Counted from the stretch's first letter, positions 33,242-60,886 are shown. The stretch is DNA of 64,000 nt from Candidatus Omnitrophota bacterium (GCA_029261055.1 JAJDCA010000015.1:83998-147997); one strand, 5' to 3'. Numbers and translations are program-made. The notes: a model not told the origin generated them from the sequence alone.

Positions 33242-33934
33242 ATGACTAAAAAGAAAATGATTATTTCGATTATTGTCCTGGCGGCTGTCGTCGGCGGAAT
33301 TATTTGGGGAACACAGCAGCATAAGGAACATTGTGCTGTGTGTTTTGTAAAATCACTCAATGCGGATGTTATTAAACATTATATTGAAAGCTTTGGTCCA
33401 TGGGCGATTCTGGTCTATGTTGGTTTGTATACGCTTAATACGTTGACACTCATTCCACCCATTGCATTTATGTCTTTATCAGCCGGGGCTTTATTCGGTC
33501 CGATATGGGGGACGGTGGCTTTAACGTTAGGTTCTTTTTGTGGAACAACAACGACATTTATTATTTCACGATTTTTTGGAGGCAAACTGGTTGATAAATT
33601 TGTTAAGGGGAAAGCGGCTGACTTTAATGAAAAATTAAGTAAGAAGGGTTTTGTTGTTCTTCTTCCTATGAGATTAATTGGATTTCCTCCGTATGAATTT
33701 GTTAACTATGCTTGCGGTTTATCAAAAATACCTTATAAGGATTATATCTCAGCTACTATGCTCGGGATGTCTCCGGCGATTATTATTCAAGTTTTGTTAG
33801 CTGATCGATTGGCTAATTTTAGTTGGAAAGATCCTGTGTTGTATTTGGTTATTGCTTTATTTATTGGCATGGGTGTGATCACAGGGAGAATTATTAAAAA
33901 ACAACAACAAGAAGAAAAAGCCCTCCAAAGTTAA
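33242..33934 (+). CDS. TVP38/TMEM64 (DedA superfamily) membrane protein
   Basis: Motif LLPMRLIGFPPYEFVNYACGLSKI. 230 aa. Confidence 0.75.
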   Translation: MTKKKMIISIIVLAAVVGGIIWGTQQHKEHCAVCFVKSLNADVIKHYIESFGPWAILVYVGLYTLNTLTLIPPIAFMSLSAGALFGPIWGTVALTLGSFCGTTTTFIISRFFGGKLVDKFVKGKAADFNEKLSKKGFVVLLPMRLIGFPPYEFVNYACGLSKIPYKDYISATMLGMSPAIIIQVLLADRLANFSWKDPVLYLVIALFIGMGVITGRIIKKQQQEEKALQS

Positions 33935-34000
33935 AAACTTTGGAGAGGACTCGCCATCCGTTAGGATGGCGGTCAGCTTTTACAAAAATAGGAGATTGGA

Positions 34001-35443
34001 ATGGCAAAATATGAGTATGATTTAATTGTTATTGGTGGGGGAGCGGGGGGATTAACGGCAGCTACTTTTGCAGGTCAATCAGCGGCCAAAACTCTTTTAA
34101 TCGAGAAAGAAGAAAAATTAGGTGGTGATTGTCTGCATTATGGGTGTGTGCCTTCTAAATCACTTATTAAAAGTGCTTATGTTGCTAATGTCATTCGTCA
34201 TTCAGAAAAATATGGTTTACCGAAGGTTTCAATGGGTAAAGTGGATTACAGTAAGGTGAGTAAACGTATCCACGATATTATCGGAACTATTCAGCCACAT
34301 GATGAACCTGAGTATATTCAAAAAAAATATAATGTGGAAACAAAGTTTGGTTTGCCAAAGTTCGTTGACGATCATACCATTGATTTAAATGGCGAAACGA
34401 TTACATCGCGTTATTTTGTTGTTGCGACGGGGTCATCTGCATTTATTCCGCCTATTGAAGGTCTTGGAGATGTTCCTTATCTTACAAATGTGAATATTTT
34501 CTCATTGGATAAATTACCTGAATCCATGATTGTTCTTGGAGGCGGGCCGATTGGTTTAGAAATGGCACAATCATTTCAACGGCTTGGATCAAAAGTGACG
34601 GTTCTTGAAGGCGGGCCTAAATTTCTTCCTAAAGAAGATGAAGACATTTCTGAATTTATTAAAGAACGATTGGAAGCTGATGGCATAAAAATTCAGTTAA
34701 ATTCTTTGGCTAAAAGTGTCAAAAAGGAAGGGAATGATATTGTATTGACGTATGATTGCAAAAAATCAGGTAAATTGGAAACGATTAAAGCGGAAGCTTT
34801 GCTTGTGGCCACCGGACGAAAGGCTAATGTCAGTGGAATGGATTTAGAAAAAGCAGGCGTAGAATATGATCGATCGATTAAAGTCAATGCAAAGATGCAA
34901 ACTTCAAAGAAACATATTTATTCAGTAGGTGATGTGGCCGGGGGATATCAGTTTACGCATGTGGCCAGTTATGAAGCGGTTGTCGCTATCTATAACTGCA
35001 TTCTAAAAATTCCTAAAAAAGCAGATGCCACAAATACGCCGTGGTGTACTTACCTTGACCCCGAGGTGGCTTCCATTGGATACAATGAACAAAGAGCTAA
35101 AGCAGCTGGGATTGAATATATCAAGCATGTAGAAGAAATTACGCACAATGATCGCGCCCTTGCCGAAGGGGAAAATAAGGGGCTCATTAAGATCATAATG
35201 AACAAAAAAGGCAAAGTGATTGGTGTTCAAATTGTCAGTTTTCATGCGGGTGATTTAATTTCAGAATGGATTCCTGTTTTAAACGGGAATGTTAAATTAG
35301 CAACAATTACCGATGCCATTCATCCATATCCGACGATGTCGGAAATTAACAAGAATGCCAGCGTAAATTATCTAGTTTCCACTATTCCGCCATGGACAAA
35401 GAAGTTAACCAAGATGCTGTTTGGCTATCAGGGGAAAGTTTAA
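34001..35443 (+). CDS. Class I pyridine nucleotide-disulfide oxidoreductase (dihydrolipoamide dehydrogenase / mercuric-reductase-like)
   Basis: FAD motif GGGAGG, redox-active CxxxxC (GGDCLHYGCVPSK) and a dimerisation domain with HPYPTMSE. Confidence 0.8.
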   Translation: MAKYEYDLIVIGGGAGGLTAATFAGQSAAKTLLIEKEEKLGGDCLHYGCVPSKSLIKSAYVANVIRHSEKYGLPKVSMGKVDYSKVSKRIHDIIGTIQPHDEPEYIQKKYNVETKFGLPKFVDDHTIDLNGETITSRYFVVATGSSAFIPPIEGLGDVPYLTNVNIFSLDKLPESMIVLGGGPIGLEMAQSFQRLGSKVTVLEGGPKFLPKEDEDISEFIKERLEADGIKIQLNSLAKSVKKEGNDIVLTYDCKKSGKLETIKAEALLVATGRKANVSGMDLEKAGVEYDRSIKVNAKMQTSKKHIYSVGDVAGGYQFTHVASYEAVVAIYNCILKIPKKADATNTPWCTYLDPEVASIGYNEQRAKAAGIEYIKHVEEITHNDRALAEGENKGLIKIIMNKKGKVIGVQIVSFHAGDLISEWIPVLNGNVKLATITDAIHPYPTMSEINKNASVNYLVSTIPPWTKKLTKMLFGYQGKV

Positions 35444-35453: not shown

Positions 35454-35930
35454 ATGGATAATAAAAATCGAGCAATAACGATGCGTTTTTTAGCGCAACC
35501 TACTGATGCTAATTTTGGCGGGAAGGTGCATGGAGGCTCAGTCATGAAATGGATAGACGAGGCCGGATATGCATGTGCCGTTAATTGGAGTGAAAAATAC
35601 TGTGTAACTGTTTTTATGGGGGATTTAAAATTTAAGGCCCCAATTTCCATTGGTGATCTGGTTGAGGTTAATGCCAAAATCATTCATACCGGAAAAACAA
35701 GTATACATATTGGGATTGAGGTTCAAACATCAGACCCGCGTAAAAACAAATTTAGTAAAACAACAGATTGTATCATTGTGTTTGTTGCTGTTGATGAAAA
35801 TGGAAAATCAATAGGTGTGCCGAAGTGGGAGCCCAAAGAAAAAGAAGATAAGTGTCTGGAAGATTATGCCATAAAATCCATGAATATACGTAAAGAAATG
35901 GAAGGGCAATTACAATCATGCTTACTTTGA
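35454..35930 (+). CDS. Acyl-CoA thioesterase (hotdog fold, YciA-like)
   Basis: FGGKVHGGSVMKWIDEAGYACA motif. Confidence 0.8.
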   Translation: MDNKNRAITMRFLAQPTDANFGGKVHGGSVMKWIDEAGYACAVNWSEKYCVTVFMGDLKFKAPISIGDLVEVNAKIIHTGKTSIHIGIEVQTSDPRKNKFSKTTDCIIVFVAVDENGKSIGVPKWEPKEKEDKCLEDYAIKSMNIRKEMEGQLQSCLL

Positions 35931-35994: not shown

Positions 35995-36759
35995 ATGGGC
36001 GCTATTATAGGGTTGCTTCTTATCTTAACCATATCGCTAACGATTGTGCGTATTGGGAGTATTTCATTGGAATTAACGGGATTATCTTCGGAAGTTTCCG
36101 GATTTCAGGCACAGTCAGCATTTTCAGGCGCAGGGTTTACGACGTCTGAATCTGAAAGTATTGTCACTCATCCTGTTCGTCGGAAAATTATTCGCATCCT
36201 TATGCTTATAGGGAGTGTTGGCGTTATATCAACGGGAGCAACGCTCATTGTTGCTTTGATAGGGACGAATAATGAGAATTTTGCATTAAGAGGTGTTTTT
36301 TTAATCGGAGGCCTTTTGGCGTGTTACATTTTAGCTCGATCAAAAATTGTGTATCATCTTATGAAAAAAATAATTGTGGGAATATTAAGCAGAAGCAAGG
36401 CATTACAGTTGCATGATTATCACGATATTTTAGCTATTAGTAAAGGGTACTCTATTTCGCGTATACGTGTACAGCCGGAGAATTGGCTTATTGGCAAAAA
36501 ATTAAAAGAATTAGGTATTCAAAAAGAAGGAACGACCATTTTAGCGATAACCCGTAGGGTTAATGCGCAGGAAAAACATATTATTCCTCATGGAGAAACA
36601 ATGATTGAGGAGGGGGATTTATTGACTATTTATGGTCGCTGTACAGCGATGGATTGTTTGTTTATGCGGCCTAAAGGAGAGAAAGGTGATATGGCCCATC
36701 AAATGCGTAAACAACAAAGAGAATCGCTCATTAATTTAGGAAATACTGAAAGTGTTTAA
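35995..36759 (+). CDS. Membrane protein with a C-terminal TrkA-C (RCK_C) domain
   Basis: N-terminal TM segments. The C-terminus (VQPENWLIGKKLKELGI...GDLLTIYG) matches RCK_C. Confidence 0.6.
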   Translation: MGAIIGLLLILTISLTIVRIGSISLELTGLSSEVSGFQAQSAFSGAGFTTSESESIVTHPVRRKIIRILMLIGSVGVISTGATLIVALIGTNNENFALRGVFLIGGLLACYILARSKIVYHLMKKIIVGILSRSKALQLHDYHDILAISKGYSISRIRVQPENWLIGKKLKELGIQKEGTTILAITRRVNAQEKHIIPHGETMIEEGDLLTIYGRCTAMDCLFMRPKGEKGDMAHQMRKQQRESLINLGNTESV

Positions 36760-36779: not shown

Positions 36780-38378
36780 ATGATTAAAAAAGTTTTTTGG
36801 ATTTTTACAGCTATGGTGGGTATTGGCAGCGTTTTAGCTTATTTGTTTTTTCCTCCGCTTTTATGGCTACTGGTTATTTTTCTCCCCATAATTTTTCTTG
36901 GTCTGAAAGATATGACTCAAACCAGCCATACCATTTTGCGTAATTATCCTGTCCTGGGACATTTTCGTTATTTGTTAGAGGAGATTCGACCTGAAATTAA
37001 TCAATATTTTGTTGAATCCAATCATGATGGGCGGCCATTTGCCCGGGAAGATCGAACTTTAGTTTATCAACGGGCAAAAGGTGTTTTGGATACGTTACCG
37101 TTTGGAACACAGAAAAATGTTTATGAGCATGGATATGAATGGGTTAATCATTCCTGGAAACCTGTAGAGGTTGACCCAAAAGATTTGCGCGTCACGATTG
37201 GTGGTCCGGATTGCAAAAAGCCTTATAGTGCAAGCATTCTTAACATCAGTGCTATGAGTTATGGGGCGTTAAGTCAGCCGGCTATAATGGCCCTTAATCA
37301 AGGGGCCAAAATGGGGGGATTTGCGCACAATACAGGAGAAGGAAGTGTGAGTCCATATCATCAAAAGGGCGGCGATTTAATTTGGCAAATTGGGACAGGG
37401 TATTTTGGCTGCCGTACAGCGGACGGGAATTTTAATGAAGAAACTTTTGCAAAAAAAGCACAGCTGGATGAAATTAAAATGATTGAAATTAAAATTTCTC
37501 AAGGGGCTAAACCCGGGCATGGAGGGATTTTGCCAGCCGCAAAATTAACAGAAGAAATTGCTGAGATTCGCCATGTGCCAATGGGTGAAGACGTTATGTC
37601 ACCCCCAGCACATAAAGCATTCTCGACGCCGCTTGAATTTGTGGGTTTTATTAAGAAATTGCGCGATTTGTCCGGTGGAAAACCTGTTGGTTTTAAATTT
37701 TGTGTCGGGCGAAGGCGTGAGTTTCTCGCCGTGTGTAAAGCTATGTTAAAAACAGGCATTACGCCGGATTTTATTACGGTGGATGGGGGAGAAGGTGGGA
37801 CAGGTGCGGCCCCGTTAGAATATTCTAATAGTATAGGATGTCCTCTTATGGAGGGATTAATTTTTGTTCATAATTCTCTCGTCGGGAGTGGTTTGCGTGA
37901 CAAAATAAAGATTATAACAAGTTCTAAAGTCTCCACGGGATATGGCATTATTAAACGTCTTGCTGTCGGGGCTGATGTATGTTATTCCGCCCGGGCGATG
38001 ATGATGGCTTTGGGATGTATTCAAGCTTTAAAGTGCAATTCTAATAAATGCCCGACAGGTGTTGCAACGCAAGACTCAGCATTGGCAAAAGGTTTAGTTG
38101 TTGACGACAAAAATAAACGTGTTGCCAATTTTCATAAGGAGACAGTTGAGAGTGTCGCCGAAATGTTAGGTTCCATGGGGTTAGAACATACGAGTGAATT
38201 ACGGCCATGGCATGTTATGCGTCGAGTTAATCCAACAGAAACAAAACATTATGGAGAACTGTATAGATATTTAAAACCCGGCGTATTGTGTGGGGATGAT
38301 ATTCCAGCGCACTATAAAAGAGCCTGGGATTCGGCTTGTCCGACAAGTTTTGACCATGTTACTCTAATTAAGAAATAA
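36780..38378 (+). CDS. Membrane-anchored FMN-binding glutamate-synthase-family protein (GltB domain-2 homologue, PF01645-like)
   Basis: Two N-terminal TM helices followed by the GltS FMN domain (ITVDGGEGGTGAAPLEYSNSIGCP). Confidence 0.8.
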   Translation: MIKKVFWIFTAMVGIGSVLAYLFFPPLLWLLVIFLPIIFLGLKDMTQTSHTILRNYPVLGHFRYLLEEIRPEINQYFVESNHDGRPFAREDRTLVYQRAKGVLDTLPFGTQKNVYEHGYEWVNHSWKPVEVDPKDLRVTIGGPDCKKPYSASILNISAMSYGALSQPAIMALNQGAKMGGFAHNTGEGSVSPYHQKGGDLIWQIGTGYFGCRTADGNFNEETFAKKAQLDEIKMIEIKISQGAKPGHGGILPAAKLTEEIAEIRHVPMGEDVMSPPAHKAFSTPLEFVGFIKKLRDLSGGKPVGFKFCVGRRREFLAVCKAMLKTGITPDFITVDGGEGGTGAAPLEYSNSIGCPLMEGLIFVHNSLVGSGLRDKIKIITSSKVSTGYGIIKRLAVGADVCYSARAMMMALGCIQALKCNSNKCPTGVATQDSALAKGLVVDDKNKRVANFHKETVESVAEMLGSMGLEHTSELRPWHVMRRVNPTETKHYGELYRYLKPGVLCGDDIPAHYKRAWDSACPTSFDHVTLIKK

Positions 38379-38390
38379 AGGGGATTAATA

Positions 38391-40034
38391 ATGAAGGCAT
38401 CGGATTTATTTATTAAAGCATTAGAAAATGAAGGCGTTGAATATATTTTTGGAATTCCAGGTGAGGAGAACTTGGATTTTTTGAATTCATTAAAAGATTC
38501 AAAGATTAAACTTATTCTAACGCGGCATGAACAAGCCGCCGGTTTTATGGCCGCCACGTATGGACGGCTTACAGGAAAGGCCGGGGTTTGTCTTTCTACA
38601 TTAGGGCCGGGAGCAACCAATTTTGTGACGGCCGCAGCGTATGCCCAGCTTGGCGGGATGCCCATGCTGATGATAACGGGGCAAAAACCGATTAAGACAA
38701 GTAAACAAGGGCAGTTTCAGATAGTTGATATTGTGGACATGATGAAGCCGTTAACAAAATATACGAAGCAGATAGTCGATGGCGATAATATTCCTTCACG
38801 GGTTAGAGAAGCATTTCGGCTTGCACAAGAAGAGCGGCCGGGGGCTGTTCATTTAGAATTGCCTGAAGATATTGCAAAAGAAGATACGCAAGAATCATTA
38901 TTTGCTCGAAGCCTTGCGCGTCGACCTGTTGCCGAACAAAAAGCTGTCAGCAAAGCGATTGAGTTGATTGAACAAGCTAAAACGCCATTGCTTCTTATCG
39001 GCGCGGGGGCGAATCGGAAGTTGACATCCAAGATGCTTAAAAAATTTGTGGATACCTTTCAAATTCCGTTTGTGAGCACGCAAATGGGTAAAGGTGTGAT
39101 TGATGAACGGCATCCTTTACATTTAGGGAATGCATCACTGTCGGATAAAGATTTTGTTCATTGTGCGATTAATAAAGCTGATTTGATTATCAATGTTGGA
39201 CATGATGTTGTTGAGAAGCCTCCATTTTTTATGCAACACGGGGGTATAAAAGTTATTCATATTAATTTCTTAAGTGCATCTGTTGATCCGGTTTATTTTC
39301 CGCAAGTAGAAGTTATTGGTGATATCGCTAATAGTATTTGGCAGATTAAAGAAAAATTAACGAAACAAGAGCAATGGAATTTTTCTGATGTTTTAAAAAT
39401 TAAGCAAGAATTAGACGCACATTTGAAGATAGGTGTTGATGACAATAGATTTCCAGTTATTCCACAAAGATTCGTGGCCGAGGTGAGAAAAGCAATGCCT
39501 TCCGACGGAATCATTGCCCTGGACAATGGCGTTTATAAGATTTGGTTTGCGCGAAATTATATGGCGCACGAGCCTAATACTGTTTTGTTAGATAACGCAC
39601 TGGCCACCATGGGCGCAGGGTTGCCGTCTGCCATGGGCGCGAAGATTGTTCATCCCGATAGAAAGGTGATGGCGATTTGTGGCGATGGTGGTTTTATGAT
39701 GAATTCACAAGAATTAGAAACATCCGTTCGTTTGAAATTAAATATTGTGGTTCTTATTTTACGGGATAATGCTTATGGTATGATCAAATGGAAACAAACA
39801 GGAATGGGTTTTGAAAATTGGGGTTTGGATTATGGCAACCCTGATTTTGTTAAATATGCGGAAAGTTATGGAGCTAACGGACATCGTGTTAATGCCATTG
39901 AAGAGCTGGGTGCAATACTTGAAAAAAGTATTAATGAAGATGGTGTGCACCTTATAGAGGTTCCTGTTGATTATTCTGAAAATGAAAAAGTGTTAATTAA
40001 AGAGCTACATGGGCGAACATGCTCATCTGGATAG
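38391..40034 (+). CDS. Thiamine-diphosphate enzyme of the acetolactate synthase / pyruvate oxidase family
   Basis: N-terminal Pyr domain (GIPGEENLDFLNSL...GPGATN) and TPP-binding GDGGFMMNSQELET...N. Confidence 0.85.
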   Translation: MKASDLFIKALENEGVEYIFGIPGEENLDFLNSLKDSKIKLILTRHEQAAGFMAATYGRLTGKAGVCLSTLGPGATNFVTAAAYAQLGGMPMLMITGQKPIKTSKQGQFQIVDIVDMMKPLTKYTKQIVDGDNIPSRVREAFRLAQEERPGAVHLELPEDIAKEDTQESLFARSLARRPVAEQKAVSKAIELIEQAKTPLLLIGAGANRKLTSKMLKKFVDTFQIPFVSTQMGKGVIDERHPLHLGNASLSDKDFVHCAINKADLIINVGHDVVEKPPFFMQHGGIKVIHINFLSASVDPVYFPQVEVIGDIANSIWQIKEKLTKQEQWNFSDVLKIKQELDAHLKIGVDDNRFPVIPQRFVAEVRKAMPSDGIIALDNGVYKIWFARNYMAHEPNTVLLDNALATMGAGLPSAMGAKIVHPDRKVMAICGDGGFMMNSQELETSVRLKLNIVVLILRDNAYGMIKWKQTGMGFENWGLDYGNPDFVKYAESYGANGHRVNAIEELGAILEKSINEDGVHLIEVPVDYSENEKVLIKELHGRTCSSG

Positions 40035-40044
40035 GAGAAAGAAT

Positions 40045-41439
40045 ATGTCTGAAAAAATAAAAGTAACGTCACCCTATGATGGGCATTTGATTAAAGAGAT
40101 TGATCTGGATGATTGGGCAAAAGTTGATGGGATGTTGGCAACGGCTAAATCATTAGCCGATGACAGACGTCAATGTTTAATGATTCCTGAACGTATTAAA
40201 ATTTTAGAAAAGACGGCACAGTTAGTTGAAGATCGTCTAGAAAATTTTGCATTGCAAGCCGCTGAAGAAGGAGGGAAGCCGCTTATTGATTCTCGTGTGG
40301 AGTTAGTACGTGCGGTTAACGGTATTCAGGAAGCTGCGCGATCTCTTAATCATTTGGTGGGGCGTGAAATTCCGATGAATCTTAATGCCGCTTCACTGAA
40401 TCGCATGGCGTATACATTAAGAGAGCCGATAGGGGTTGTTATTGCCGTTAGTGCCTTTAACCATCCTTTTAATCTTATTGTGCATCAGGTTATTCCCGCT
40501 GTTGCAGTTGGTTGTCCGGTTATCGTTAAGCCAGCGGAGACAACCCCGATTTCATGTATCAATTTATTGAATTGTCTTTATGAAGCCGGCTTGCCTAAAG
40601 AATGGGCGCAAATGACGTTATGTAATTTAGAGAATGCAGAAAAATTGGTTACGGATTCTCGGGTGGCTTTTTTGACTTTTATCGGTTCGGCGAAGGTGGG
40701 TTGGATGTTACGGTCAAAAGTAAATCCCGGTGTGCGTTGTGTCCTGGAGCATGGTGGGGCGGCACCTGTTATTGTTGAACCGGATGCAGATATCGATGCG
40801 ATGTTGCCGCTTTTAACTAAAGGTGGATTTTATCATGCAGGTCAGGTTTGTGTTTCTGTTCAGAGAGTTTTTGTGCACGAGTCGATAGTGGATAAGGTTT
40901 CTAAGGGATTGGTTGAATTAGCCAAGAAATTAGTTGTTGGTGATCCTTCGGATACAAAAACAGAAATCGGTCCGCTTATTTTGGAACGCGAAGTTGACCG
41001 CGTTGATCAATGGGTGCAAGAGGCAAAGCAAGGTGGCGCTGAAATTCTAACCGGGGGTAAAAAACAAGGAACAACTTGTTATGAACCGACAATTATTTTG
41101 AATCCTCCCAAAGCCGCTAAAGTTTCTACCGAAGAAATTTTTGGACCTGTGGTATGTATTTATTCATACAAAGATCGCGATGAAGCGATTAAACAGGCGA
41201 ATGATGTTCCGTTTTCTTTTCAAGCGTCCGTGTTTACAAAAAATTTAGATGTGGCCTTAGATACCATGAAACGCTTGGAGGCCCTTACCGTCATGATCAA
41301 CGACCATACCGCTTTTCGTGTTGACTGGATGCCTTTTGGTGCCCGTAAGAAGTCAGGATTAGGTGTTGGCGGCATTGTTCCTACTATGGAAGAAATGACA
41401 GAAGAAAAAATGTTTGTGATAAAAACTGTTGAACAATAA
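40045..41439 (+). CDS. NAD(P)-dependent aldehyde dehydrogenase
   Basis: ALDH fold with the catalytic Cys region (GQVCVS) and Glu region (LEHGG). Start at 40045 after an AGGAGAAAG RBS (ORF track start 40009). Confidence 0.85.
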   Translation: MSEKIKVTSPYDGHLIKEIDLDDWAKVDGMLATAKSLADDRRQCLMIPERIKILEKTAQLVEDRLENFALQAAEEGGKPLIDSRVELVRAVNGIQEAARSLNHLVGREIPMNLNAASLNRMAYTLREPIGVVIAVSAFNHPFNLIVHQVIPAVAVGCPVIVKPAETTPISCINLLNCLYEAGLPKEWAQMTLCNLENAEKLVTDSRVAFLTFIGSAKVGWMLRSKVNPGVRCVLEHGGAAPVIVEPDADIDAMLPLLTKGGFYHAGQVCVSVQRVFVHESIVDKVSKGLVELAKKLVVGDPSDTKTEIGPLILEREVDRVDQWVQEAKQGGAEILTGGKKQGTTCYEPTIILNPPKAAKVSTEEIFGPVVCIYSYKDRDEAIKQANDVPFSFQASVFTKNLDVALDTMKRLEALTVMINDHTAFRVDWMPFGARKKSGLGVGGIVPTMEEMTEEKMFVIKTVEQ

Positions 41440-41445: not shown

Positions 41446-41688
41446 GTGACAATGAATGAGTTAACTTTATACTACAAACAAACGTGTCCGTATTGCAGTA
41501 AAGTCCTTCATTTTATGCAAGAAAAGGATATAAAGGTTGAACTTAAAAGTACGGAAAATGATGATAATAGAAATGAATTAATTCAGCTGGGCGGCAAACC
41601 ACAGGTGCCTTGTCTTGTCATCAAAGGAACAGCAATGTATGAATCAGATGATATTATTCAATGGTTTCAAGAAAATTTAGCCTCATGA
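41446..41688 (+). CDS. Glutaredoxin
   Basis: CPYC active site (TCPYCSKV). 80 aa. Confidence 0.8.
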   Translation: MTMNELTLYYKQTCPYCSKVLHFMQEKDIKVELKSTENDDNRNELIQLGGKPQVPCLVIKGTAMYESDDIIQWFQENLAS

Positions 41689-42509
41689 GAAAATATAATT
41701 TAATAATTTTAGCTGGTGGTGAGGATGAAGACTGGTGTCATCAGTACGGCTGTAAAAGAAAAGCTGAATTGCCGCTTTATGGTAAGCCGATGATTGATTT
41801 GGTTGTCGATGCTTTTCATAAAAGTTCATATATCGATCAAATTATAGTTGTTGGGCCTAAAGATCTTGATCAACTGAAATCAATGAAGCATGTTCATAAG
41901 CGGCTTAATGAAGGGAAGTCATTTATTCAAAATCTTCTTAAGGCCGTATATTACATTAAATCGTCGATTTACAAATTTTCTAATAATCATAATGGTTATC
42001 TTATTTCGTTTTGTGATGCAGCCCATCTCAATACAAAGATTATTAATGCAACTTTAGAAAATATGTCTCGGCATGATGCGGGGCTTGTTTTGCATTATGT
42101 AGAAAAAGAAACTATTTCTCAAAGTGGCTTTCCAATTGAAAATCGCACTTTTTTACCTATTGGCGGAAAAAAATATTCAGGTTCTAATATCTATTACGTA
42201 AAGAAAGCCCGGTCGCTGCTGAATGTGGTGTGGGATATTATTAATCTTCGGAAATTACGCAAAGAACCGAAAGAATTTTTAAAATATTTAGATTGTGAAG
42301 AGGGGGGTTGGCCAAAAATTGAAAAAGTTGTAGAACAACATATGCGAACAAAAGTTAAAGTTTTTGTGTCTCCTTTTGCAGAAATGGGTGTGGACGTCGA
42401 TAAACCAATTGATTATGAATTAGCCAAACTGCATACAGCCAAATCGCGCAAGAAGTTTTTAAAGCAGAATGAAGCATCCTCAAGTAACCTCATGCATAGT
42501 CAGAGATAA
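41685..42509 (+). CDS. MobA-like NTP-transferase family nucleotidyltransferase
   Basis: N-terminal LIILAGG nucleotide-binding motif. ATGA overlap with the glutaredoxin stop. Confidence 0.6.
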   Translation: MRKYNLIILAGGEDEDWCHQYGCKRKAELPLYGKPMIDLVVDAFHKSSYIDQIIVVGPKDLDQLKSMKHVHKRLNEGKSFIQNLLKAVYYIKSSIYKFSNNHNGYLISFCDAAHLNTKIINATLENMSRHDAGLVLHYVEKETISQSGFPIENRTFLPIGGKKYSGSNIYYVKKARSLLNVVWDIINLRKLRKEPKEFLKYLDCEEGGWPKIEKVVEQHMRTKVKVFVSPFAEMGVDVDKPIDYELAKLHTAKSRKKFLKQNEASSSNLMHSQR

Positions 42510-42652
42510 GTATCCTTTCCAAACCCTGTCCGGCAACCGTTATGTCAAACGATTCAACGGCTGGAATCAGCTAACAACTCTTTTGTATGCCCAAGTATTC
42601 CCCCATAATTACCTTTCTTGACAATAAACGAACGATCGTTTAATATCGCAAA

Positions 42653-43228
42653 ATGCGACAATCAGATGAAAATAAAAAAATAGCTATTGGAAAAGCGGCC
42701 ATTCAACTTATTAATTCGGTTGGGTTTGATGGTGCGTCTATATCAAAAATTGCAAAGGTTGCAAATGTTTCACCTGCGACTATCTATACATACTTTGAAA
42801 ACAAGGAAGATATGTTGCTTAAGCTTTATGTGATGGTTAAAAAAGAGCTTGCCATTGCTTTACTTCAGGGTTTAGACGAATCATTGGATATTAAAAAAGG
42901 TATACATTTGATGTTTGAAAGTTTAATTGCCTATTCTGAGAAAAACATTGAAAGTTTTGCGTTTAAAGAGCAATTTGCAAATTGTCCGCTTGTGGCAAAT
43001 GTTTGTGAAGATGAAGAGTTGAGAGCTGTCATTGAGCCGTTAAAATCGTTTATAGAAAAAGGCAAGAGGCAAAATATTCTTAAAGAGGTGTCGATTGAAT
43101 ATATTGGAGCATATCTTTTTCATCCAATTTCAACTCTTATTAAAAGAAAGTATGCCCACCAAGAAAAATTGACAGAAGAAGAAAAGAATCTTATGTTCGC
43201 AATGGGATGGGATGCTATTAGGAAATAA
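42653..43228 (+). CDS. TetR-family transcriptional regulator
   Basis: N-terminal HTH (ISKIAKVANVSPATIYTYF). Confidence 0.8.
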   Translation: MRQSDENKKIAIGKAAIQLINSVGFDGASISKIAKVANVSPATIYTYFENKEDMLLKLYVMVKKELAIALLQGLDESLDIKKGIHLMFESLIAYSEKNIESFAFKEQFANCPLVANVCEDEELRAVIEPLKSFIEKGKRQNILKEVSIEYIGAYLFHPISTLIKRKYAHQEKLTEEEKNLMFAMGWDAIRK

Positions 43229-43240
43229 AGGAGAATCATC

Positions 43241-44338
43241 ATGCAAAAAAATAAATTGATACATACCGTAACACTTTCCTTAACATTGATCGGTTTGTGT
43301 TTGTCAGCTATCGGATGTTCTAAAAAGGCTAAAGCGGAAGATCCTAAACCATCCGGGCCTATGTCTGTTAACGTGGTTGGTTTTAAAACACTTCAAAAAG
43401 ATTTATCCGACACTATTTTTGTTGTAGGAACGCTTGTAGCTAATGAATCGGTCAATATCACCAACGAGATTAACGGTATTATTCAAAGTATTAATTTTAA
43501 AGAAGGTCAAAAGGTTGAGAAAGGCGATGTTTTGTTTCAGATTGAAAAGAATAAACTGCAGGCCGGATATGACCAGGCTGTAGCGAATTTGAGGTTGGCG
43601 GAATCGACGGCTAAGCGTTATAAAAATTTGGTGCAGTCCAAGGCTGTATCTCAACAGGAATATGATGAGACGGTGGCAACTCTTGCCTCGAATCGGGCAG
43701 CAGTTCAATTGGCGAAAGAACAACTGGAAGACGCAACGATTATTGCCCCCTTTAGCGGAGTGATGGGTGAACGAATGATCAGCATAGGACAGTTTGTCTC
43801 ACCTGGAGCCCAGTTGAGTTCTTTGTACAATCAAGATCCGATTAAGGTTGCCTTTCATGTGCCGGAGAGGTATCTCGGTGATGTTGCTATCGGACAAATG
43901 ATCGAAATGAAAGTGGCTTCTTATAGTGACAAAACCTACAACGGGGATGTGTATTTTATTGATCCCAAGATTGATGAAACCACGCGTACAGTTTTGGTTA
44001 AAGCGTACGTCGATAACCCCACAGGTGAACTGCGCGAAGGCATGTTTGCCAATATTGAATTAATTGTAGAGATTCGTAAAGATGCTATTTTGATTCCGGA
44101 AACCGCGCTGATTGTCAAAGCTGATGAGGTGTTTGTTTATGTGGTCAAAGAAGATCAAACGGTTGAATTACGTTCAATTCAGACGGGGGCCCGAAATAAG
44201 GGAATGGTGGGTGTTCGTGAAGGATTAAGTAAAGAGGAAGTTGTTATTGTGGAGGGGTATCAAAAATTAGGACCGGGATCTCCGGTTAATGTACGCTTCG
44301 AAGATGTGACTGAGAAAAAACCTTATGAAATTATCTGA
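43241..44338 (+). CDS. RND efflux periplasmic adaptor (membrane fusion protein) lipoprotein
   Basis: Lipobox (AIGCS), biotinyl/lipoyl-like and beta-barrel MFP domains. It overlaps the RND start. Confidence 0.8.
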   Translation: MQKNKLIHTVTLSLTLIGLCLSAIGCSKKAKAEDPKPSGPMSVNVVGFKTLQKDLSDTIFVVGTLVANESVNITNEINGIIQSINFKEGQKVEKGDVLFQIEKNKLQAGYDQAVANLRLAESTAKRYKNLVQSKAVSQQEYDETVATLASNRAAVQLAKEQLEDATIIAPFSGVMGERMISIGQFVSPGAQLSSLYNQDPIKVAFHVPERYLGDVAIGQMIEMKVASYSDKTYNGDVYFIDPKIDETTRTVLVKAYVDNPTGELREGMFANIELIVEIRKDAILIPETALIVKADEVFVYVVKEDQTVELRSIQTGARNKGMVGVREGLSKEEVVIVEGYQKLGPGSPVNVRFEDVTEKKPYEII

Positions 44339-47300
44339 AATAAGTATTAAACGCCCTGTGTTAGCCACGATGATGAATTTGTTGTTGATTCTCTTTGGAG
44401 TGGTTGGCTTATCCCGTCTTCCGGTGCGTGAGCTGCCGGATATTGACCCACCGATTGTCAATGTGCAAACGGTTTATCCAGGGGCCAGTGCCCAGGTTAT
44501 TGAAACTCAGGTGACTGAACCGTTGGAAGATGCTTTAACCAGTGTCGAGGGGATCAAAAAAATTACGAGTGAAAACCGGGAACAATTAAGTTCTATCACG
44601 ATTGAATTTAATTTATCCGAGGATGTGAACGTGGCGGCTCAGGATGTGAGGGATCGTGTTGCAAGAGTACGCGGGCGTTTACCTGATGATATTGACGAAC
44701 CCATTGTGTCAAAGCAAGACGCCGACGCGAGCCCGTCGATTTGGGTGGCGTTGTTTAGTGAACGATTTTCTACGCTTGAGCTTACGACGATTGCAGAAAA
44801 TTTATTTAAGGATCGTTTACAAACCGTTCCCGGTGTGAGTTCTGTTATTCTCGGTGGATCCAAACGTTTTGCTATTCGTATTCGGCTTGATTCCAAAAAG
44901 ATGGCAGCGCGTGGCCTTAGTGTGCTTGATGTAGACCGTGCCTTAACTGAGCAAAGTGTTGAGCTTCCCAGTGGACGTATTGAAAGTCTGCAACGTGAGC
45001 TGTCCATTGAAACGCGCGGACAGCTCAAAAATCCTGACGAATATAATAATCTTGTTATCCGACGTGAGGGCGATGATCTAGTCAGGCTTAAAGATATCGG
45101 TTTTGCTGAAATCGGTGTGGAGGACGAACGGTCTATAGCGCGTTATAACGGCAAACCTGCCGTCGGGATTGGGGTTATTAAGCAGTCTAAGGCCAATATT
45201 ATTGATGTGGCCACAGCACTCAAAGTTGAGCTCGAACGTATCCAGCCCATGATTCCAGAGGGGATTAATTATAATATTCCTTATGACGAATCGATTTATA
45301 TTGAGAAGTCTATTAAGGAAGTTTGGATCACTCTTGCGATAGCGTTTATTTTGGTTATTGGGGTAATCTATATTTTTCTGCACAATGTTCGCTCCACATT
45401 GATTCCGAGTATTACGATTCCTATTTCTATTATTGCCACGTTCGGCATTTTATATTTTTTCGGATATTCTATTAATATTGTGACCATGCTCGCGTTTGTT
45501 TTGGCGATCGGACTTGTGGTAGATGATGCGATTGTTGTTCTGGAAAATATTCACCGGCATATTGAAGAGGGCTTATCGCCGTTTCAGGCATCTTTGCTCG
45601 GGATGAAGGAAATCGGATTTGCTGTTATTGCGACAACGGTTGCCCTTGTGGCTGTATTTCTTCCCATGGCGTTTCAGACAAGTGATACCGGACGGTTATT
45701 TATTGAATTTGCGGTTGCGATTTCATTCAGTGTGATTATTTCGACATTTGTCGCGTTAACTCTTGCGCCGATGATGTGTGCTCGGGTTTTAAAACCTCAT
45801 CATGAAAATCAACGCCAATCATTTCTTTTGAAATTTGAACAATGGTTGTACCGCCGGCGTAAAGGTTATTTAAAAATGTTGGGTTTTACGTTTCGTCATA
45901 TGAGCATTGTGTTTGGTATTTGTGTTTTAGCCGTGGCGGGCGCGTTTTATTTCTACTTAAATTTGGAAAGTGAGTTTCTTCCCGAGGAAGATAAAGGGCG
46001 ATTGTTTTGTATTGTCCTGGCGCCTGAGGGATCAACCAGTGAATATACGGATCGCATGGTGCGAAAGATGGAAGCTATTATACAATCGACACCGGAAGTT
46101 GACGGGTTTTTTACAGCCGTGGCTTTGGCGCGCGGCGGTCCGGGGCAGGCTGCGCAAGGATTATCCTTTATTCGGTTAAAAGAAAAGCGAGACCGTCATG
46201 TACGGGATATTGTCGGCGGACCGACGGGTTTTCGCTCACAGTTCTTTACAACCATTGAAGGTTCATTGGTGATCCCGATTATTCCCAAAGCCATCGGCGG
46301 TGGTTTTTCTCAACCTTATCAGCTTGTCCTTCAGCATCAGGATTTACATGAATTAAATCGTATTGCTGAAGAGTTTAGTAATACTTTGCGTCAGGAAGGG
46401 TTTCTTTTAAATGTGCGTTCTACATTTGAATTAAATAAACCTGAATTACGCGTGCACATTAACCGTAACCGTGCGGCGGTTCTTGGTGTTTCGGTTCAGG
46501 ACATATCACGTGTTTTACAAATTCTTTTCGGTGGATTGGATTTGGCTAAAGTAAATTTAGAGGGGAAGGAATATGATGTTATTGTTCAGTTGGAACGTGC
46601 ATCACGTTTATCTCCGTCGGATTTGGAAAAGATTTATATTCGCAATAATAATGGACAATTGATTCAGTTGAATAATGTCATTGATTATGAAACAGGAGGC
46701 GGGCCTAGTGCGATCAATCACTTCAATCGTCTGCGTTCAGCCACGATTGAGGCCACACCGTTGGATATTCCATTGGGGACGGCGATAGAACGGACTGAGA
46801 AATTATTAAAGGAAAGCAATATCCAAGGGCTTCGATATGAATGGAATGGGGAGGCTTTGGATTTAAAAGAGTCTGGAAGCGAAACGGTCTTTGTCATCCT
46901 GCTTGCGATTTTGATTATTTACATGGTTTTGGCGGCCCAGTTTGAAAGTTTAAAAGATCCACTGGTGATTATGTTTACTCTTCCACTTGCGGTCTTCGGG
47001 GCTTTGGGTTCCTTATGGTTGTTGGCGTATGTGGACCGTATGGCTGTTTCGGGCGTTAGCTTTTTACCGCGTATTCCGGCCATGGGCATCAATCTGTTCA
47101 GTCAGATTGGAATTATTATGCTGATCGGTATTATTACAAAAAATGGTATTCTTTTGGTGGATTTTGCCAATCAGGAAATGGCAAAAGGACAAGATGCGAT
47201 GCGCGCTATGTTGGGTGCGGGTAAGATGCGTTTTCGTCCGATTCTTATGACGGCGTTTTCAACCATAGCAGGGATTTTACCGATTGCCATTGGTTTTGGG

Positions 47301-52392: not shown

Positions 52393-52404
52393 AAGGAGGA
52401 TTCA

Positions 52405-52800
52405 ATGGGCACTTTAGGGGCATACTTTGCACCATTATTATTAATTAATGGCGTAGGATTGATTTTATTATCAACGGCATCGCGGTACATGAATGTTAAA
52501 GCCGAAATTCAAAAATTAACACCGGAAGATTGTGCTAAGAAAAAAGAAGAGTTAGGTCGTGAAATAAAGCGAGCTCACCTTTTTCATCGAGCCATGGTAG
52601 GACTTTATTTAAGCATCGGTTTTTTCTCTTCGTCAGCCTTAATCGGGACGTTAATAAAAAATTATCCCCAAGTGGCTGACTTTATATTAAACTCTTTTAC
52701 AATTGCTGGCGTGGCTTGCACTGTTTTTGCGTCATTTCAGTTGATTGTGGAGTCTTTTTTAACGATGGAAATTGTCAAGAAACATGCTGATAAAAAATAG
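52405..52800 (+). CDS. Small 3-TM membrane protein (DUF2721-like)
   Basis: 131 aa with an AGGAGG RBS. The hydropathy pattern is consistent with DUF2721. Confidence in the family assignment is low. Confidence 0.45.
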   Translation: MGTLGAYFAPLLLINGVGLILLSTASRYMNVKAEIQKLTPEDCAKKKEELGREIKRAHLFHRAMVGLYLSIGFFSSSALIGTLIKNYPQVADFILNSFTIAGVACTVFASFQLIVESFLTMEIVKKHADKK

Positions 52801-52811
52801 AAGGGGGAATA

Positions 52812-53162: not shown

Positions 53163-53173
53163 AAGGGGATGTT

Positions 53174-54784: not shown

Positions 54785-54794
54785 AGGAGGAGGT

Positions 54795-60720: not shown

Positions 60721-60723
60721 TTA

Positions 60724-60744: not shown

Positions 60745-60886
60745 AAAGTCTGTCACGCAATGTTTTAATGCGTGATAGACCAATACTTTGCGAAGAAAAA
60801 ACTAAAGGTGTTGTCCCGATGTTTTTACGGGACTACACCCTAGTTTTTTTTATTCAACCCTCAACCAAACAACCCCAAGGAGAAAC

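What the first reader, a model, noticed from the sequence alone, without database searches (positions are those of the whole stretch)
36780..41439. Paralogous set of the same enzyme pair without Rieske domains: GltS-like FMN protein, TPP enzyme and aldehyde dehydrogenase (Ehrlich-like route?)
About 12 kb upstream of the Rieske operon sits a second GltB-domain-2 homologue, here membrane-anchored by two TM helices. It is immediately followed by a second POX/ALS-family TPP enzyme, an NAD aldehyde dehydrogenase, a glutaredoxin and a nucleotidyltransferase. The order GltS-like (amine/imine to 2-oxo acid chemistry), TPP decarboxylase-type enzyme, then ALDH reads like a catabolic amino or oxo-acid pathway. 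The repetition of the same two enzyme families, once plain and once Rieske-fused, in one window points to a duplicated and diversified module of unknown substrate.
Basis: inference. Interest (0 to 1): 0.55.

Follow-up and report, generated by a model that had tools for sequence, protein, structure and literature searches.

The report
Likely glutamate-to-succinate bypass operon
Three adjacent genes annotated as a glutamate-synthase-like flavoprotein, an "acetolactate synthase" and an aldehyde dehydrogenase most likely form a 2-oxoglutarate decarboxylase / succinic-semialdehyde dehydrogenase bypass of the citric acid cycle, a pathway already known from cyanobacteria, here joined to an uncharacterised membrane flavoprotein.

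Summary
The genes are real and correctly typed. They are a membrane-anchored GltS-FMN-domain protein (36780-38378), a ThDP enzyme (38391-40034) and an ALDH (40045-41439), tightly packed on the + strand.

The "paralogous duplicated module" reading fails. The Rieske-fused copies are only 32% and 27% identical to these genes. Each gene has 72-81% identical orthologues in other genomes.

The ThDP enzyme is not AlsS:
- It misses both AlsS HMM cut-offs.
- It replaces the two AlsS glutamines that position the second pyruvate (Q424, Q487) with Ala and Lys, exactly as cyanobacterial 2-oxoglutarate decarboxylase (KGD) does.
- It falls in the same NCBIfam family (NF006187) as KGD-like sequences.

Context in other genomes points to decarboxylase-plus-ALDH chemistry on 2-oxoglutarate:
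- An ALDH follows the ThDP gene in 8 of 10 sampled genomes, and the two are fused in single chains.
- The partner is often an ALDH21-type enzyme (ALDH21 is an NADP-SSADH).
- One genome has gdhA-TPP-ALDH with overlapping genes.

Best reading: glutamate/2-oxoglutarate to succinic semialdehyde to succinate. The GltS-like protein occupies the GDH position, but its role is inferred only. This is a known kind of pathway in a new variant, of moderate interest.

The parts
36780..38378 (+). Membrane-anchored GltS-FMN-domain protein (532 aa). It has an N-terminal hydrophobic hairpin, an FMN TIM-barrel domain and three 3Fe-4S-type cysteines (C413, C419, C424).
   Evidence: PF01645 scores 285 bits. Residues 4-46 are hydrophobic. 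The C-x5-C-x4-C motif aligns with A. brasilense GltS C1102/C1108/C1113, and the QGAKPG..GG..LP..K..R block is conserved. No GATase_2, central or GXGXG domain is present. Orthologues are 57-72% identical across many phyla.
38391..40034 (+). ThDP-dependent 2-oxo acid decarboxylase of the KGD/NF006187 family (547 aa). The proposed function is 2-oxoglutarate decarboxylase.
   Evidence: NF006187 scores 927 bits against a cut-off of 509. The AlsS models fall below their cut-offs. It is 43-45% identical to cyanobacterial KGD-like ORFs, which also score 878 bits on NF006187. E47, K383, A405, M407, D432, D459, Y462 and K468 equal MaKGD E50, K386, A408, M410, D435, D462, Y465 and K471. AlsS Q424/Q487 are replaced by A405/K468.
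40045..41439 (+). NAD(P)-dependent aldehyde dehydrogenase (ORF from 40009, likely start 40045). The proposed function is succinic semialdehyde dehydrogenase.
   Evidence: PF00171 scores 409 bits. The best solved relative is ALDH21, an NADP-SSADH (306 bits, 37% identity). An RBS lies before 40045. Orthologues of 54-76% follow or are fused to the same ThDP clade in L205, L211, L071 and P0123.
34001..35443 (+). Class-I pyridine-nucleotide disulfide oxidoreductase (CxxxxC). It is a recurrent neighbour of both the ThDP gene and the GltS-like gene. Its role is unknown.
   Evidence: Pfam gives Pyr_redox_2 plus Pyr_redox_dim. All NCBIfam matches are below their cut-offs. A protein of this family lies within 5 kb of the GltS-like gene in 14 of 80 loci. 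It is next to the ThDP gene in L205 and two genes from it in L203 and in L206.
33242..33934 (+). VTT/DedA-family membrane protein, paired with the PNDR gene.
   Evidence: PF09335. An 80% identical copy lies beside PNDR and a GltS-like gene in L069. A VTT gene lies directly upstream of the ThDP gene in L203.
35454..35930 (+). 4HBT-fold thioesterase. It is not a conserved neighbour.
   Evidence: PF03061. No matches in the related loci.
35995..36759 (+). Small membrane protein with a TrkA_C (RCK_C) domain, 20 nt upstream of the GltS-like gene. It may be a transporter or regulatory subunit.
   Evidence: PF02080. Hydrophobic segments are present. Only L062 has a 40% homologue nearby.
41446..41688 (+). 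Glutaredoxin-fold protein (80 aa), 6 nt after the ALDH gene.
   Evidence: PF00462 and GST_N. Not conserved in the related loci.
41661..42509 (+). MobA-like nucleotidyltransferase-domain protein (282 aa). It is the last gene before a 143-nt gap and a promoter-like site.
   Evidence: PF12804 scores 34.8 bits. A promoter-like site lies at 42618-42646, ahead of the TetR gene. Not conserved elsewhere.

Best explanation
Genes 36780-41439 encode a short route from the glutamate/2-oxoglutarate node to succinate.

The ThDP enzyme (38391-40034) is a non-oxidative 2-oxoglutarate decarboxylase of the cyanobacterial KGD family. It is mis-named acetolactate synthase by homology. It makes succinic semialdehyde plus CO2. 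The ALDH (40045-41439), translated from a start 10 nt after the ThDP stop codon, oxidises that aldehyde to succinate with NAD(P)+. Together they bypass 2-oxoglutarate dehydrogenase and succinyl-CoA synthetase.

The upstream membrane-anchored FMN/3Fe-4S protein (36780-38378) occupies the position that NADP-glutamate dehydrogenase holds in other genomes. I propose that it interconverts glutamate and 2-oxoglutarate + NH3 at a GltS-type synthase site, exchanging electrons through its 3Fe-4S cluster with a membrane-associated partner.

Shown: family memberships, active-site identities, gene order, fusions and recurrence across phyla. Inferred: the identity of the 2-oxo acid, the direction of flux, and the whole role of the GltS-like protein.
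For: 1. Family. The window ThDP enzyme scores 927 bits on NF006187 (cut-off 509). ORFs carrying 52-55 of 56 residues of peptides from the experimentally characterised Microcystis KGD score 878 bits on the same model. They are 43-45% identical to the window enzyme.

2. Active site. AlsS Q424 and Q487 position the second pyruvate (PMC9469723). They are A405 and K468 here, the same as MaKGD A408 and K471. K471 was modelled as the salt bridge to the distal carboxylate of 2-oxoglutarate. AlsS K40 is Glu both here and in KGD.

3. Coupling to an ALDH. An ALDH follows the ThDP gene in 8 of 10 sampled contexts that have 75-81% identical ThDP genes. In one of these (L203) a beta-carbonic anhydrase gene lies between the two. 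An ALDH also follows the ThDP gene in Granulosicoccus L071. Single-chain ThDP-ALDH fusions exist (P0123, P0133).

4. ALDH identity. In five contexts and one fusion the partner is 55-59% identical to moss ALDH21, an NADP-dependent SSADH. The window ALDH's best solved relative is also ALDH21.

5. Glutamate link.
- L209 has gdhA (731 bits, cut-off 536) overlapping the start of the ThDP gene, followed by an ALDH21-type gene.
- GDH is also adjacent in L202 and nearby in L206.
- In 80 genomes the commonest neighbour of the GltS-like gene is this ThDP family, in 17 loci. In 13 of these (SAR324 x10, Granulosicoccus x3) the GltS-like gene sits immediately upstream of a ThDP gene 63-73% identical to the window's.

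6. GltS-like cofactor sites. The three 3Fe-4S cysteines and the QGAKPG...R block of the GltS synthase site are kept.

7. Operon structure. Gaps are 12-20 nt, RBSs are present, and no intergenic terminator-like site separates the genes between 35995 and 42509.

8. Precedent. KGD and SSADH genes carry consecutive locus tags in Cyanothece (cce4227 and cce4228).
Against: - No enzyme assay exists for this clade.
- The window clade differs from cyanobacterial KGD at three residues that docking placed in the pocket: S251/N379/Y382 against Q254/V382/H385. The difference is consistent across the clade. The substrate could therefore be another anionic 2-oxo acid.
- Identity to characterised KGD is only about 44%.
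- The window ALDH is only 37% identical to ALDH21, and all NCBIfam SSADH models are below their cut-offs.
- The GltS-like family has invariant His and Ile where GltS has Glu and Gln in the KPG-x-GG-x-LP loop. About 60 of 80 GltS-like loci have no ThDP gene nearby.
- SAR324 loci lack an adjacent ALDH.
- Whether the organism lacks 2-oxoglutarate dehydrogenase could not be checked.
Confidence: 0.55

Rival explanations
1. This is the same decarboxylase-then-ALDH logic acting on a different anionic or polar 2-oxo acid. Candidates are 3-sulfopyruvate, 2-oxoadipate, hydroxypyruvate and oxaloacetate. The GltS-like flavoprotein would produce that oxo acid from the matching amino acid, giving an Ehrlich-like catabolic route of unknown substrate.
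For: - Pocket positions S251/N379/Y382 differ from cyanobacterial KGD Q254/V382/H385 across the whole window clade.
- The GltS-like family changes two residues of the GltS substrate loop.
- After lactaldehyde dehydrogenase, the ALDH's next-best NCBIfam matches are sulfoacetaldehyde and phosphonoacetaldehyde dehydrogenases, all below their cut-offs.
- A TauE/SafE-family exporter gene lies 5 kb upstream, at 31175-32038.
Against: - The same HMM ranking (lactaldehyde, SafD, PhnY) is given by the ALDH21-type partners, whose plant orthologue is a proven SSADH. The ranking therefore does not discriminate.
- NADP-glutamate dehydrogenase is the gene found fused in an operon with this ThDP clade (L209) and adjacent in L202.
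- TauE is not a conserved neighbour.
- Both lysines assigned to 2-oxoglutarate binding in MaKGD are kept.
Confidence: 0.25
2. ThDP-ALDH is a KGD/SSADH pair, but the GltS-like gene is only a neighbour with an unrelated housekeeping role. Its adjacency would reflect operon shuffling within a redox/stress gene neighbourhood (PNDR, DedA, glutaredoxin).
For: - Most GltS-like loci (about 60 of 80) lack the ThDP gene.
- Most ThDP loci sampled (10 of 10 outside SAR324, Granulosicoccus and the window) lack the GltS-like gene.
- PNDR, DedA, MsrAB and peroxiredoxin genes recur around these genes.
Against: - Immediate GltS-like to ThDP adjacency, with gaps of 12-125 nt, occurs in three distant lineages: the window's (12 nt), SAR324 (about 70 nt) and Granulosicoccus (29-125 nt).
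- The ThDP family is the single most frequent neighbour in an unbiased clustering.
- The GltS-like gene sits exactly where gdhA sits in L209.
Confidence: 0.15
3. The ThDP enzyme is a catabolic acetolactate synthase, as current annotation says, and the ALDH is unrelated.
For: The NF006187 product name is 'acetolactate synthase large subunit'. The best PDB hit, 13bb, is deposited as acetolactate synthase. AlsS structures are the next best hits.
Against: - AlsS models are below their cut-offs (470.5 < 510 and 432.6 < 551.1).
- Q424, Q487 and K40 of AlsS are replaced.
- No alsD, alsR, ilvN, ilvC or ilvD gene was found among the long ORFs of the window that were scanned.
- Fusion to ALDHs makes sense only if the product is an aldehyde.
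- Characterised KGDs carry the same NCBI name.
Confidence: 0.04
4. The plain pair and the Rieske-fused pair are a recently duplicated and diversified module.
For: The same two Pfam families occur twice within 18 kb on one strand.
Against: - Identity between the copies is 32% and 27%, which is family background level.
- The two ThDP enzymes belong to different subfamilies: KGD/AlsS-like against pyruvate-oxidase-like.
- Each plain gene has orthologues of 72-81% identity in other genomes.
Confidence: 0.02

Closest known systems
Cyanobacterial 2-oxoglutarate decarboxylase / succinic semialdehyde dehydrogenase TCA bypass (Synechococcus PCC 7002 A2770, Synechocystis sll1981, Microcystis MAE_06010, Cyanothece cce4227 with the SSADH cce4228). 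The bypass is also reported for Thiomicrorhabdus.
   Same: - The ThDP enzyme is in the same NCBIfam family (NF006187).
- The catalytic Glu, the GDG-X26-N motif and the Met supporting the V conformation are the same.
- The Ala and Lys that replace AlsS Q424/Q487 are the same, and both pocket lysines are kept.
- The ThDP gene is followed by an ALDH gene.
   Different: - Identity is only about 44%.
- There is a distinct pocket signature: S/N/Y instead of Q/V/H.
- The ALDH partner belongs to the ALDH21-related group. The cyanobacterial SSADH type is not recognisably among the 60 best PDB matches.
- A membrane GltS-like flavoprotein is linked upstream.
- The hosts are uncultured heterotrophs rather than cyanobacteria.
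gdhA-TPP-ALDH21 operon of locus L209 and related loci
   Same: The ThDP enzyme is 76% identical. The order is the same: a glutamate/2-oxoglutarate enzyme, then the ThDP enzyme, then an ALDH, with overlapping or tightly spaced genes.
   Different: The first gene there is soluble NADP-glutamate dehydrogenase, whereas here it is a membrane FMN/3Fe-4S GltS-domain protein. The ALDH there is ALDH21-type (56% to the moss enzyme), whereas here it is a 37% relative.
Glutamate synthase large subunit, FMN ('synthase') domain (A. brasilense GltB, Synechocystis Fd-GltS), with archaeal split GltS and N-methylglutamate synthase MgsC as stand-alone relatives
   Same: PF01645 TIM barrel, the three 3Fe-4S cysteines, and the QGAKPG..GG..LP..K..R loop.
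   Different: - No amidotransferase, central or GXGXG domain is present. None was found in the other long window ORFs that were scanned.
- No GltD partner is present.
- An N-terminal membrane hairpin is added.
- The loop has His and Ile where GltS has Glu and Gln.
- The full-length GltB model scores 148 bits against a cut-off of 1047.
Catabolic acetolactate synthase AlsS (B. subtilis 4RJJ, K. pneumoniae 1OZF)
   Same: Same three-domain ThDP fold, similar length, and about 336 bits to the solved structures.
   Different: Below both AlsS HMM cut-offs. Q424 becomes A, Q487 becomes K and K40 becomes E. No alsD or alsR is present. The enzyme is partnered with, and elsewhere fused to, an ALDH.
ALDH21 (Physcomitrella NADP-dependent succinic semialdehyde dehydrogenase, PDB 5MZ5)
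   Same: It is the best solved relative of the window ALDH. The catalytic Glu and Cys are kept. Two arginines, chain 139 and 475, are kept in every ALDH partner of this ThDP clade. I recall these as the carboxylate-binding R121 and R457; that is from memory and was not verified.
   Different: Identity is 37%. A third arginine (chain 246) is Leu here.

Membership tests
KGD-type ThDP 2-oxoglutarate decarboxylase (NCBIfam NF006187 family) | Scores above the curated cut-off of the family HMM that also captures characterised KGDs | tested here: met
   The window enzyme scores 927 bits against a cut-off of 509. A cyanobacterial KGD-like ORF scores 878 bits on the same model.
KGD-type ThDP 2-oxoglutarate decarboxylase (NCBIfam NF006187 family) | Catalytic Glu, the GDG-X25-30-N ThDP motif, and the hydrophobic residue supporting the V conformation | tested here: met
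   E47, G431-D432-G433...N460 and M407 align with MaKGD E50, D435, D462 and M410.
KGD-type ThDP 2-oxoglutarate decarboxylase (NCBIfam NF006187 family) | Residues modelled as contacting 2-oxoglutarate in MaKGD (Q254, V382, K386, A408, L467, K471) | tested here: inconclusive
   K383, A405 and K468 are conserved, and L467 becomes M464. Q254 becomes S251 and V382 becomes N379. H385 becomes Y382. These differences hold across the whole clade. The reference contacts come from docking, not from a crystal structure.
KGD-type ThDP 2-oxoglutarate decarboxylase (NCBIfam NF006187 family) | Gene next to a succinic semialdehyde dehydrogenase | tested here: met
   An ALDH starts 10 nt downstream. An ALDH follows the ThDP gene in 8 of 10 contexts, and fusions exist. 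ALDH21-type partners occur in five contexts and one fusion.
KGD-type ThDP 2-oxoglutarate decarboxylase (NCBIfam NF006187 family) | Decarboxylates 2-oxoglutarate to succinic semialdehyde | not testable with these tools
   This needs an enzyme assay.
Catabolic acetolactate synthase AlsS | Scores above the AlsS HMM cut-offs | tested here: not met
   NF006378 scores 470.5 against 510. TIGR02418 scores 432.6 against 551.1.
Catabolic acetolactate synthase AlsS | Gln424 and Gln487, which position the second pyruvate | tested here: not met
   They align to A405 and K468. The role of these residues is taken from PMC9469723.
Catabolic acetolactate synthase AlsS | als/bud operon context (alsD, alsR) or branched-chain amino acid genes | tested here: not met
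   None was found among the long ORFs of the 64-kb window that were scanned.
Glutamate synthase (GltS) large subunit | FMN-binding synthase domain with three cysteines ligating a 3Fe-4S cluster | tested here: met
   PF01645 scores 285 bits. C413, C419 and C424 align with GltS C1102, C1108 and C1113.
Glutamate synthase (GltS) large subunit | N-terminal glutamine amidotransferase, central and GXGXG domains, either in one chain or as neighbouring genes | tested here: not met
   PF01645 is the only domain found in the protein. No such domains appear in the other window ORFs scanned. The GltB equivalog scores 148 bits against 1047.
Glutamate synthase (GltS) large subunit | Full conservation of the 2-oxoglutarate-binding loop | tested here: inconclusive
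   QGAK and the downstream Arg are kept. However, KPG-E-GG-Q-LP reads KPG-H-GG-I-LP, and this is invariant in the family. The residue roles are recalled from the Fd-GltS literature and could not be checked in the paper library.
Succinic semialdehyde dehydrogenase (ALDH21 type, GabD type) | Scores above a curated SSADH HMM cut-off, or is a close orthologue of a characterised SSADH | tested here: not met
   TIGR01780 scores 272 against 646. PRK09407 scores 273 against 521. Identity to ALDH21 is 37%. The protein is filed as an ALDH with proposed SSADH function, not as a family member.
Succinic semialdehyde dehydrogenase (ALDH21 type, GabD type) | Catalytic Cys and Glu of the ALDH superfamily | tested here: met
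   LEHGG and GQVCVS align with ALDH21 ELGG and GQSCIH.

The most novel reading that the evidence does not exclude
The membrane-anchored 'FMN-binding glutamate synthase family protein' is a very large orphan family, 57-72% conserved across a dozen phyla. It could be a respiratory-type glutamate dehydrogenase. In this reading it oxidises glutamate to 2-oxoglutarate + NH3 at a GltS-type site. It then passes electrons via FMN and a 3Fe-4S cluster to a membrane acceptor. This would feed a KGD/SSADH bypass, so that glutamate is converted to succinate without NAD-GDH, 2-oxoglutarate dehydrogenase or CoA.
Probability: 0.18. Interest if true: 0.7.

Novelty: new variant of a known kind. Interest (0 to 1): 0.42.

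Why it matters
If correct, the cyanobacterial-type 2-oxoglutarate decarboxylase bypass is widespread in uncultured heterotrophs. Examples include SAR324, Planctomycetota, Calditrichota, Chloroflexota, Acidobacteriota and Granulosicoccus. In all of these it is hidden under the name "acetolactate synthase large subunit". This affects how TCA-cycle completeness and branched-chain amino acid capacity are read from MAGs.

The finding also gives a first testable functional lead for a huge, highly conserved orphan family of membrane flavoproteins, which sit at the glutamate/2-oxoglutarate node. It offers two simple diagnostic residues, Ala and Lys in place of AlsS Gln424 and Gln487, to separate decarboxylases from true acetolactate synthases.

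Tried and rejected
- A protein search with concatenated primer-derived MaKGD peptides found nothing useful and cost one search. The peptides were then used as a degenerate DNA pattern on metagenomes, and that worked.
- P0233 shared one peptide with MaKGD but was not a KGD.
- I tried to name the source organism. The exact look-ups gave only an unnamed 150-kb NCBI contig and a Logan contig.
- Literature searches for the GltS-like family, for yerD and for Fd-GltS residues Lys972/Arg992 returned nothing functional. The GltS residue roles therefore stay as recollection. My recalled Glu903 could not be placed in the alignment and was dropped.
- The ALDH21 paper was not available, so the roles of Arg121 and Arg457 are unverified.
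- The Rfam and tRNA scans found no riboswitch near the cluster.
- The promoter and terminator scans were no better than shuffles for promoters and showed no intergenic terminator inside the cluster.
- The gene between the GltS-like and ThDP genes in Planctomycetes is a GTPase, so it is uninformative.
- I considered a sulfonate route (TauE upstream, SafD-like HMM ranking). I downgraded it because proven SSADH-type ALDHs give the same ranking.
- Structure prediction was not run. The tools return no coordinates, so pocket geometry could not have been examined.

Full report
**What is in the sequence.** The stated ORFs exist on the + strand.
- 36780-38378 (532 aa) carries a single Pfam domain, PF01645 Glu_synthase (285 bits). 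Residues 4-46 are hydrophobic, with a Pro-Pro break, which is long enough for a two-helix hairpin.
- 38391-40034 (547 aa) has the three ThDP-enzyme domains.
- 40009-41439 is an ALDH (409 bits). An AGGAGA site overlapping the ThDP stop codon sits 6 nt before the ATG at 40045. Orthologues align from residue 13. The true start is therefore probably 40045.
- A glutaredoxin-fold gene (41446-41688) and a MobA-like nucleotidyltransferase gene (41661-42509) follow.
- Intergenic gaps are 6-20 nt, or the genes overlap.
- Terminator-like hairpins found between 35995 and 42509 all fall inside coding sequence, none in a gap between genes.
- A promoter-like site appears only before the TetR gene at 42653.
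- No riboswitch was found.

**Paralogy with the Rieske operon.** The two GltS-like proteins share 32% identity over 321 residues (148 bits). The two ThDP enzymes share 27% (203 bits). Both figures are at family background level.
- Each GltS-like protein scores about the same against the canonical GltB model (148 and 143 bits).
- The plain ThDP enzyme is nearer to AlsS structures (about 336 bits) than to its Rieske-fused neighbour. That neighbour is best matched by pyruvate oxidase models (379 bits).
- Each plain gene has far closer orthologues in other genomes: 72% for the GltS-like protein and 81% for the ThDP enzyme.

This is not a recently duplicated module.

**The ThDP enzyme is a KGD-family decarboxylase, not an acetolactate synthase.**

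*Family.* It passes NCBIfam NF006187 ("acetolactate synthase large subunit", 927 bits against a cut-off of 509). It fails both AlsS models (470.5 < 510 and 432.6 < 551.1).

*Recovering KGD sequences.* The characterised cyanobacterial 2-oxoglutarate decarboxylases (sll1981, A2770, MAE_06010) are described in PMC10418658.
- I recovered four peptides of MaKGD from its mutagenesis primers.
- I used one peptide as a degenerate DNA pattern on metagenomes.
- This gave ORFs matching 52-55 of the 56 peptide residues.
- These KGD-like ORFs are 43-45% identical to the window enzyme. They score 878 bits on the same NF006187 model.

The family name is therefore misleading for at least part of the family.

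*Active site.* According to PMC9469723, AlsS Q424 and Q487 position the second pyruvate.
- They align with A405 and K468 in the window enzyme, and with A408 and K471 in MaKGD.
- K471 is the residue modelled as salt-bridging the distal carboxylate of 2-oxoglutarate.
- AlsS K40 is Glu in both the window enzyme and KGD.
- E47, the GDG-X26-N motif, M407, Y462 and K383 are also shared with MaKGD.

*Differences.* The window clade carries S251/N379/Y382 where cyanobacterial KGD has Q254/V382/H385. In the alignment of 50%-identity cluster representatives, this S/N/Y signature is shared by many of them. A second group carries the cyanobacterial Q/V/H signature. AlsS-like sequences carry K...Q...Q.

*Context.* No alsD, alsR or ilv genes were found among the long ORFs of the 64-kb window that were scanned.

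**Coupling to the ALDH, and the identity of the aldehyde.** I sampled ten genomic contexts of ThDP genes that are 75-81% identical to the window's.
- In eight of them an ALDH gene follows: L203, L204, L205, L206, L208, L209, L210 and L211. In L203 a beta-carbonic anhydrase gene sits between the two, which fits a CO2-releasing step.
- Two cluster representatives are single-chain ThDP-ALDH fusions: P0123 (1016 aa) and P0133 (1019 aa). A fusion makes sense only if the ThDP product is an aldehyde.

Two ALDH types fill this position.
- The first type is window-like, at 54-76% identity: L205, L211, L071, L026 and P0123.
- The second type is 55-59% identical to moss ALDH21: L203, L204, L206, L208, L209, L210 and P0133.
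- ALDH21 is also the best solved relative of the window ALDH (306 bits, 37% identity).

**The glutamate link.**
- In L209 an NADP-specific glutamate dehydrogenase (731 bits, cut-off 536) overlaps the start of the ThDP gene by 4 nt. An ALDH21-type gene follows. That operon reads directly as glutamate to 2-oxoglutarate to succinic semialdehyde to succinate.
- GDH is also immediately downstream of the ThDP gene in L202 and five genes upstream in L206.

In the window, the GltS-like gene occupies the GDH position.

From the GltS-like side, I clustered all ORFs within 5 kb of the gene in 80 genomes, without prior bias.
- The ThDP family is the most frequent neighbour, in 17 loci. A class-I pyridine-nucleotide disulfide oxidoreductase (PNDR) is second, in 14 loci.
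- Immediate GltS-like to ThDP adjacency (ThDP 63-73% identical to the window's) is found in ten SAR324-lineage loci and three Granulosicoccus loci. L071 repeats the full GltS-like/ThDP/ALDH triad.
- Three planctomycete loci have a third NF006187-like clade one gene away, with a GTPase gene between.
- Most GltS-like loci, about 60 of 80, have no ThDP neighbour, although several of those contigs are short.

**What the GltS-like protein is.**
- It is one member of a very large family. More than 8000 hits were found, and the top 120 all scored above 810 bits. Members occur in Omnitrophota, SAR324, Planctomycetota, Chloroflexota, Bacteroidota, Myxococcota, Bdellovibrionota and others.
- The hydrophobic N-terminus is present in 117 of 120 members.
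- The three cysteines align with the 3Fe-4S ligands C1102, C1108 and C1113 of A. brasilense GltS. The QGAKPG..GG..LP..K..R block of the synthase site is kept.
- There is no amidotransferase, central or GXGXG domain in the protein. None was found in the other window ORFs scanned, and no GltD is present. It is therefore not a glutamate synthase in the usual sense.
- The family has invariant His and Ile where GltS has Glu and Gln in that loop. Its substrate may therefore differ from 2-oxoglutarate.
- No functional literature on the family was found.

**Mechanism proposed.** The steps below are marked as shown or inferred.
- Shown by sequence: the ThDP enzyme keeps the decarboxylase-type, KGD-like pocket and lacks the AlsS carboligase residues.
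- Shown by context: it is coupled to an ALDH.
- Inferred, moderately well supported: the substrate is 2-oxoglutarate and the products are succinic semialdehyde and then succinate, with NAD(P)H.
- Inferred, weakly supported: the GltS-like flavoprotein interconverts glutamate and 2-oxoglutarate + NH3. Electrons would leave or enter through its 3Fe-4S cluster at the membrane.
- Open: the recurrent PNDR, the DedA-family protein and the glutaredoxin may be redox partners, or may simply belong to a stress-related neighbourhood.

**Comparison with what is known.** The KGD/SSADH bypass is established in cyanobacteria (PMC10418658). KGD and SSADH genes carry consecutive locus tags in Cyanothece, cce4227 and cce4228. 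The bypass has also been invoked for Thiomicrorhabdus (PMC9751133). The ThDP-ALDH pair is therefore a new, divergent member of a known kind. Three things are new:
- a distinct active-site signature clade that is 75-81% conserved across phyla;
- its two alternative ALDH partners and its fusions;
- the link to an orphan membrane GltS-domain flavoprotein that stands in for GDH.

**Verdict.** The paralogy interpretation is wrong. The pathway logic is right and can now be specified. Confidence that this is a decarboxylase-plus-ALDH couple is about 0.85. Confidence that the substrate is 2-oxoglutarate is about 0.6. Confidence that the GltS-like protein works at the glutamate/2-oxoglutarate node is about 0.35. 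Interest is moderate.

Noticed in passing
window 50422-57025: The genes run in this order: Rieske-fused ThDP enzyme, two small membrane ORFs (52405-53162), Rieske-fused GltS-like protein, then egtB (54765-56057, TIGR03440 566 bits) and egtD (56018-57025, TIGR03438 384 bits). The Rieske cluster may therefore be tied to ergothioneine metabolism.
   Followed up: partly
window 33242-35443; L069 2747-4862; L203 5373-7959; L205 6251-7693: A DedA/VTT membrane protein and a class-I disulfide oxidoreductase recur beside the same ThDP or GltS-like genes in other phyla. L069 has VTT (80%), PNDR (68%) and a GltS-like gene. L205 has PNDR (77%), TPP (81%) and ALDH (70%). Their role is unexplained.
   Followed up: partly
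P0123 (1016 aa) and P0133 (1019 aa), proteins from the representative library: These are single-chain fusions of the KGD-like ThDP enzyme with an ALDH. One carries the window-type ALDH and the other the ALDH21 type.
   Followed up: yes
NCBIfam NF006187 (tested with the window ThDP enzyme, L195, L007 and L071): This equivalog model, named 'acetolactate synthase large subunit', scores cyanobacterial KGD-like sequences at 878 bits. The product name propagated by annotation pipelines is probably wrong for much of the family.
   Followed up: partly
L007 8880-9872 and seven related loci (mostly SAR324); window 41661-42509: moaA (radical SAM plus Mob_synth_C) lies just upstream of the GltS-like gene in SAR324. 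The window cluster ends with a MobA-like nucleotidyltransferase. This could be a molybdenum-cofactor link or a coincidence.
   Followed up: no
window 42653-48875: A TetR regulator and a membrane fusion protein are followed by a 1516-aa ORF. Its C-terminal third looks like an outer-membrane-factor lipoprotein fused to the pump. Only the TetR gene was scanned. The pump and membrane-fusion labels rest on reading the translations.
   Followed up: no
window 1-64000: Nearly all long ORFs are on the + strand, and GC skew is positive in every 2-kb bin. This suggests the window lies on one replichore with strong strand bias.
   Followed up: no
window 3231-6626: An 1131-aa tri-domain ORF combines an MFS transporter, an acyltransferase and an AMP-binding enzyme. 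It is Aas-like, suggesting lysophospholipid uptake and re-acylation.
   Followed up: no
L203 9801-10577; window 57090-57698: In Fuerstiella a beta-carbonic anhydrase gene sits between the ThDP and ALDH genes, which fits a CO2-releasing step. The window also has an ORF at 57090-57698 that looks like a beta-carbonic anhydrase by eye (not scanned), 16 kb downstream.
   Followed up: no
window 49448-50293: A DUF5996 protein (199 bits) lies immediately upstream of the Rieske-ThDP gene.
   Followed up: no
window 60647-63823: tRNA-Lys(CTT) is followed by ORFs that read as a split transketolase (60887-61711 and 61722-62693) and a transaldolase (62690-63823). The tRNA is a tool result. The enzyme labels come from reading the translations.
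   Followed up: no
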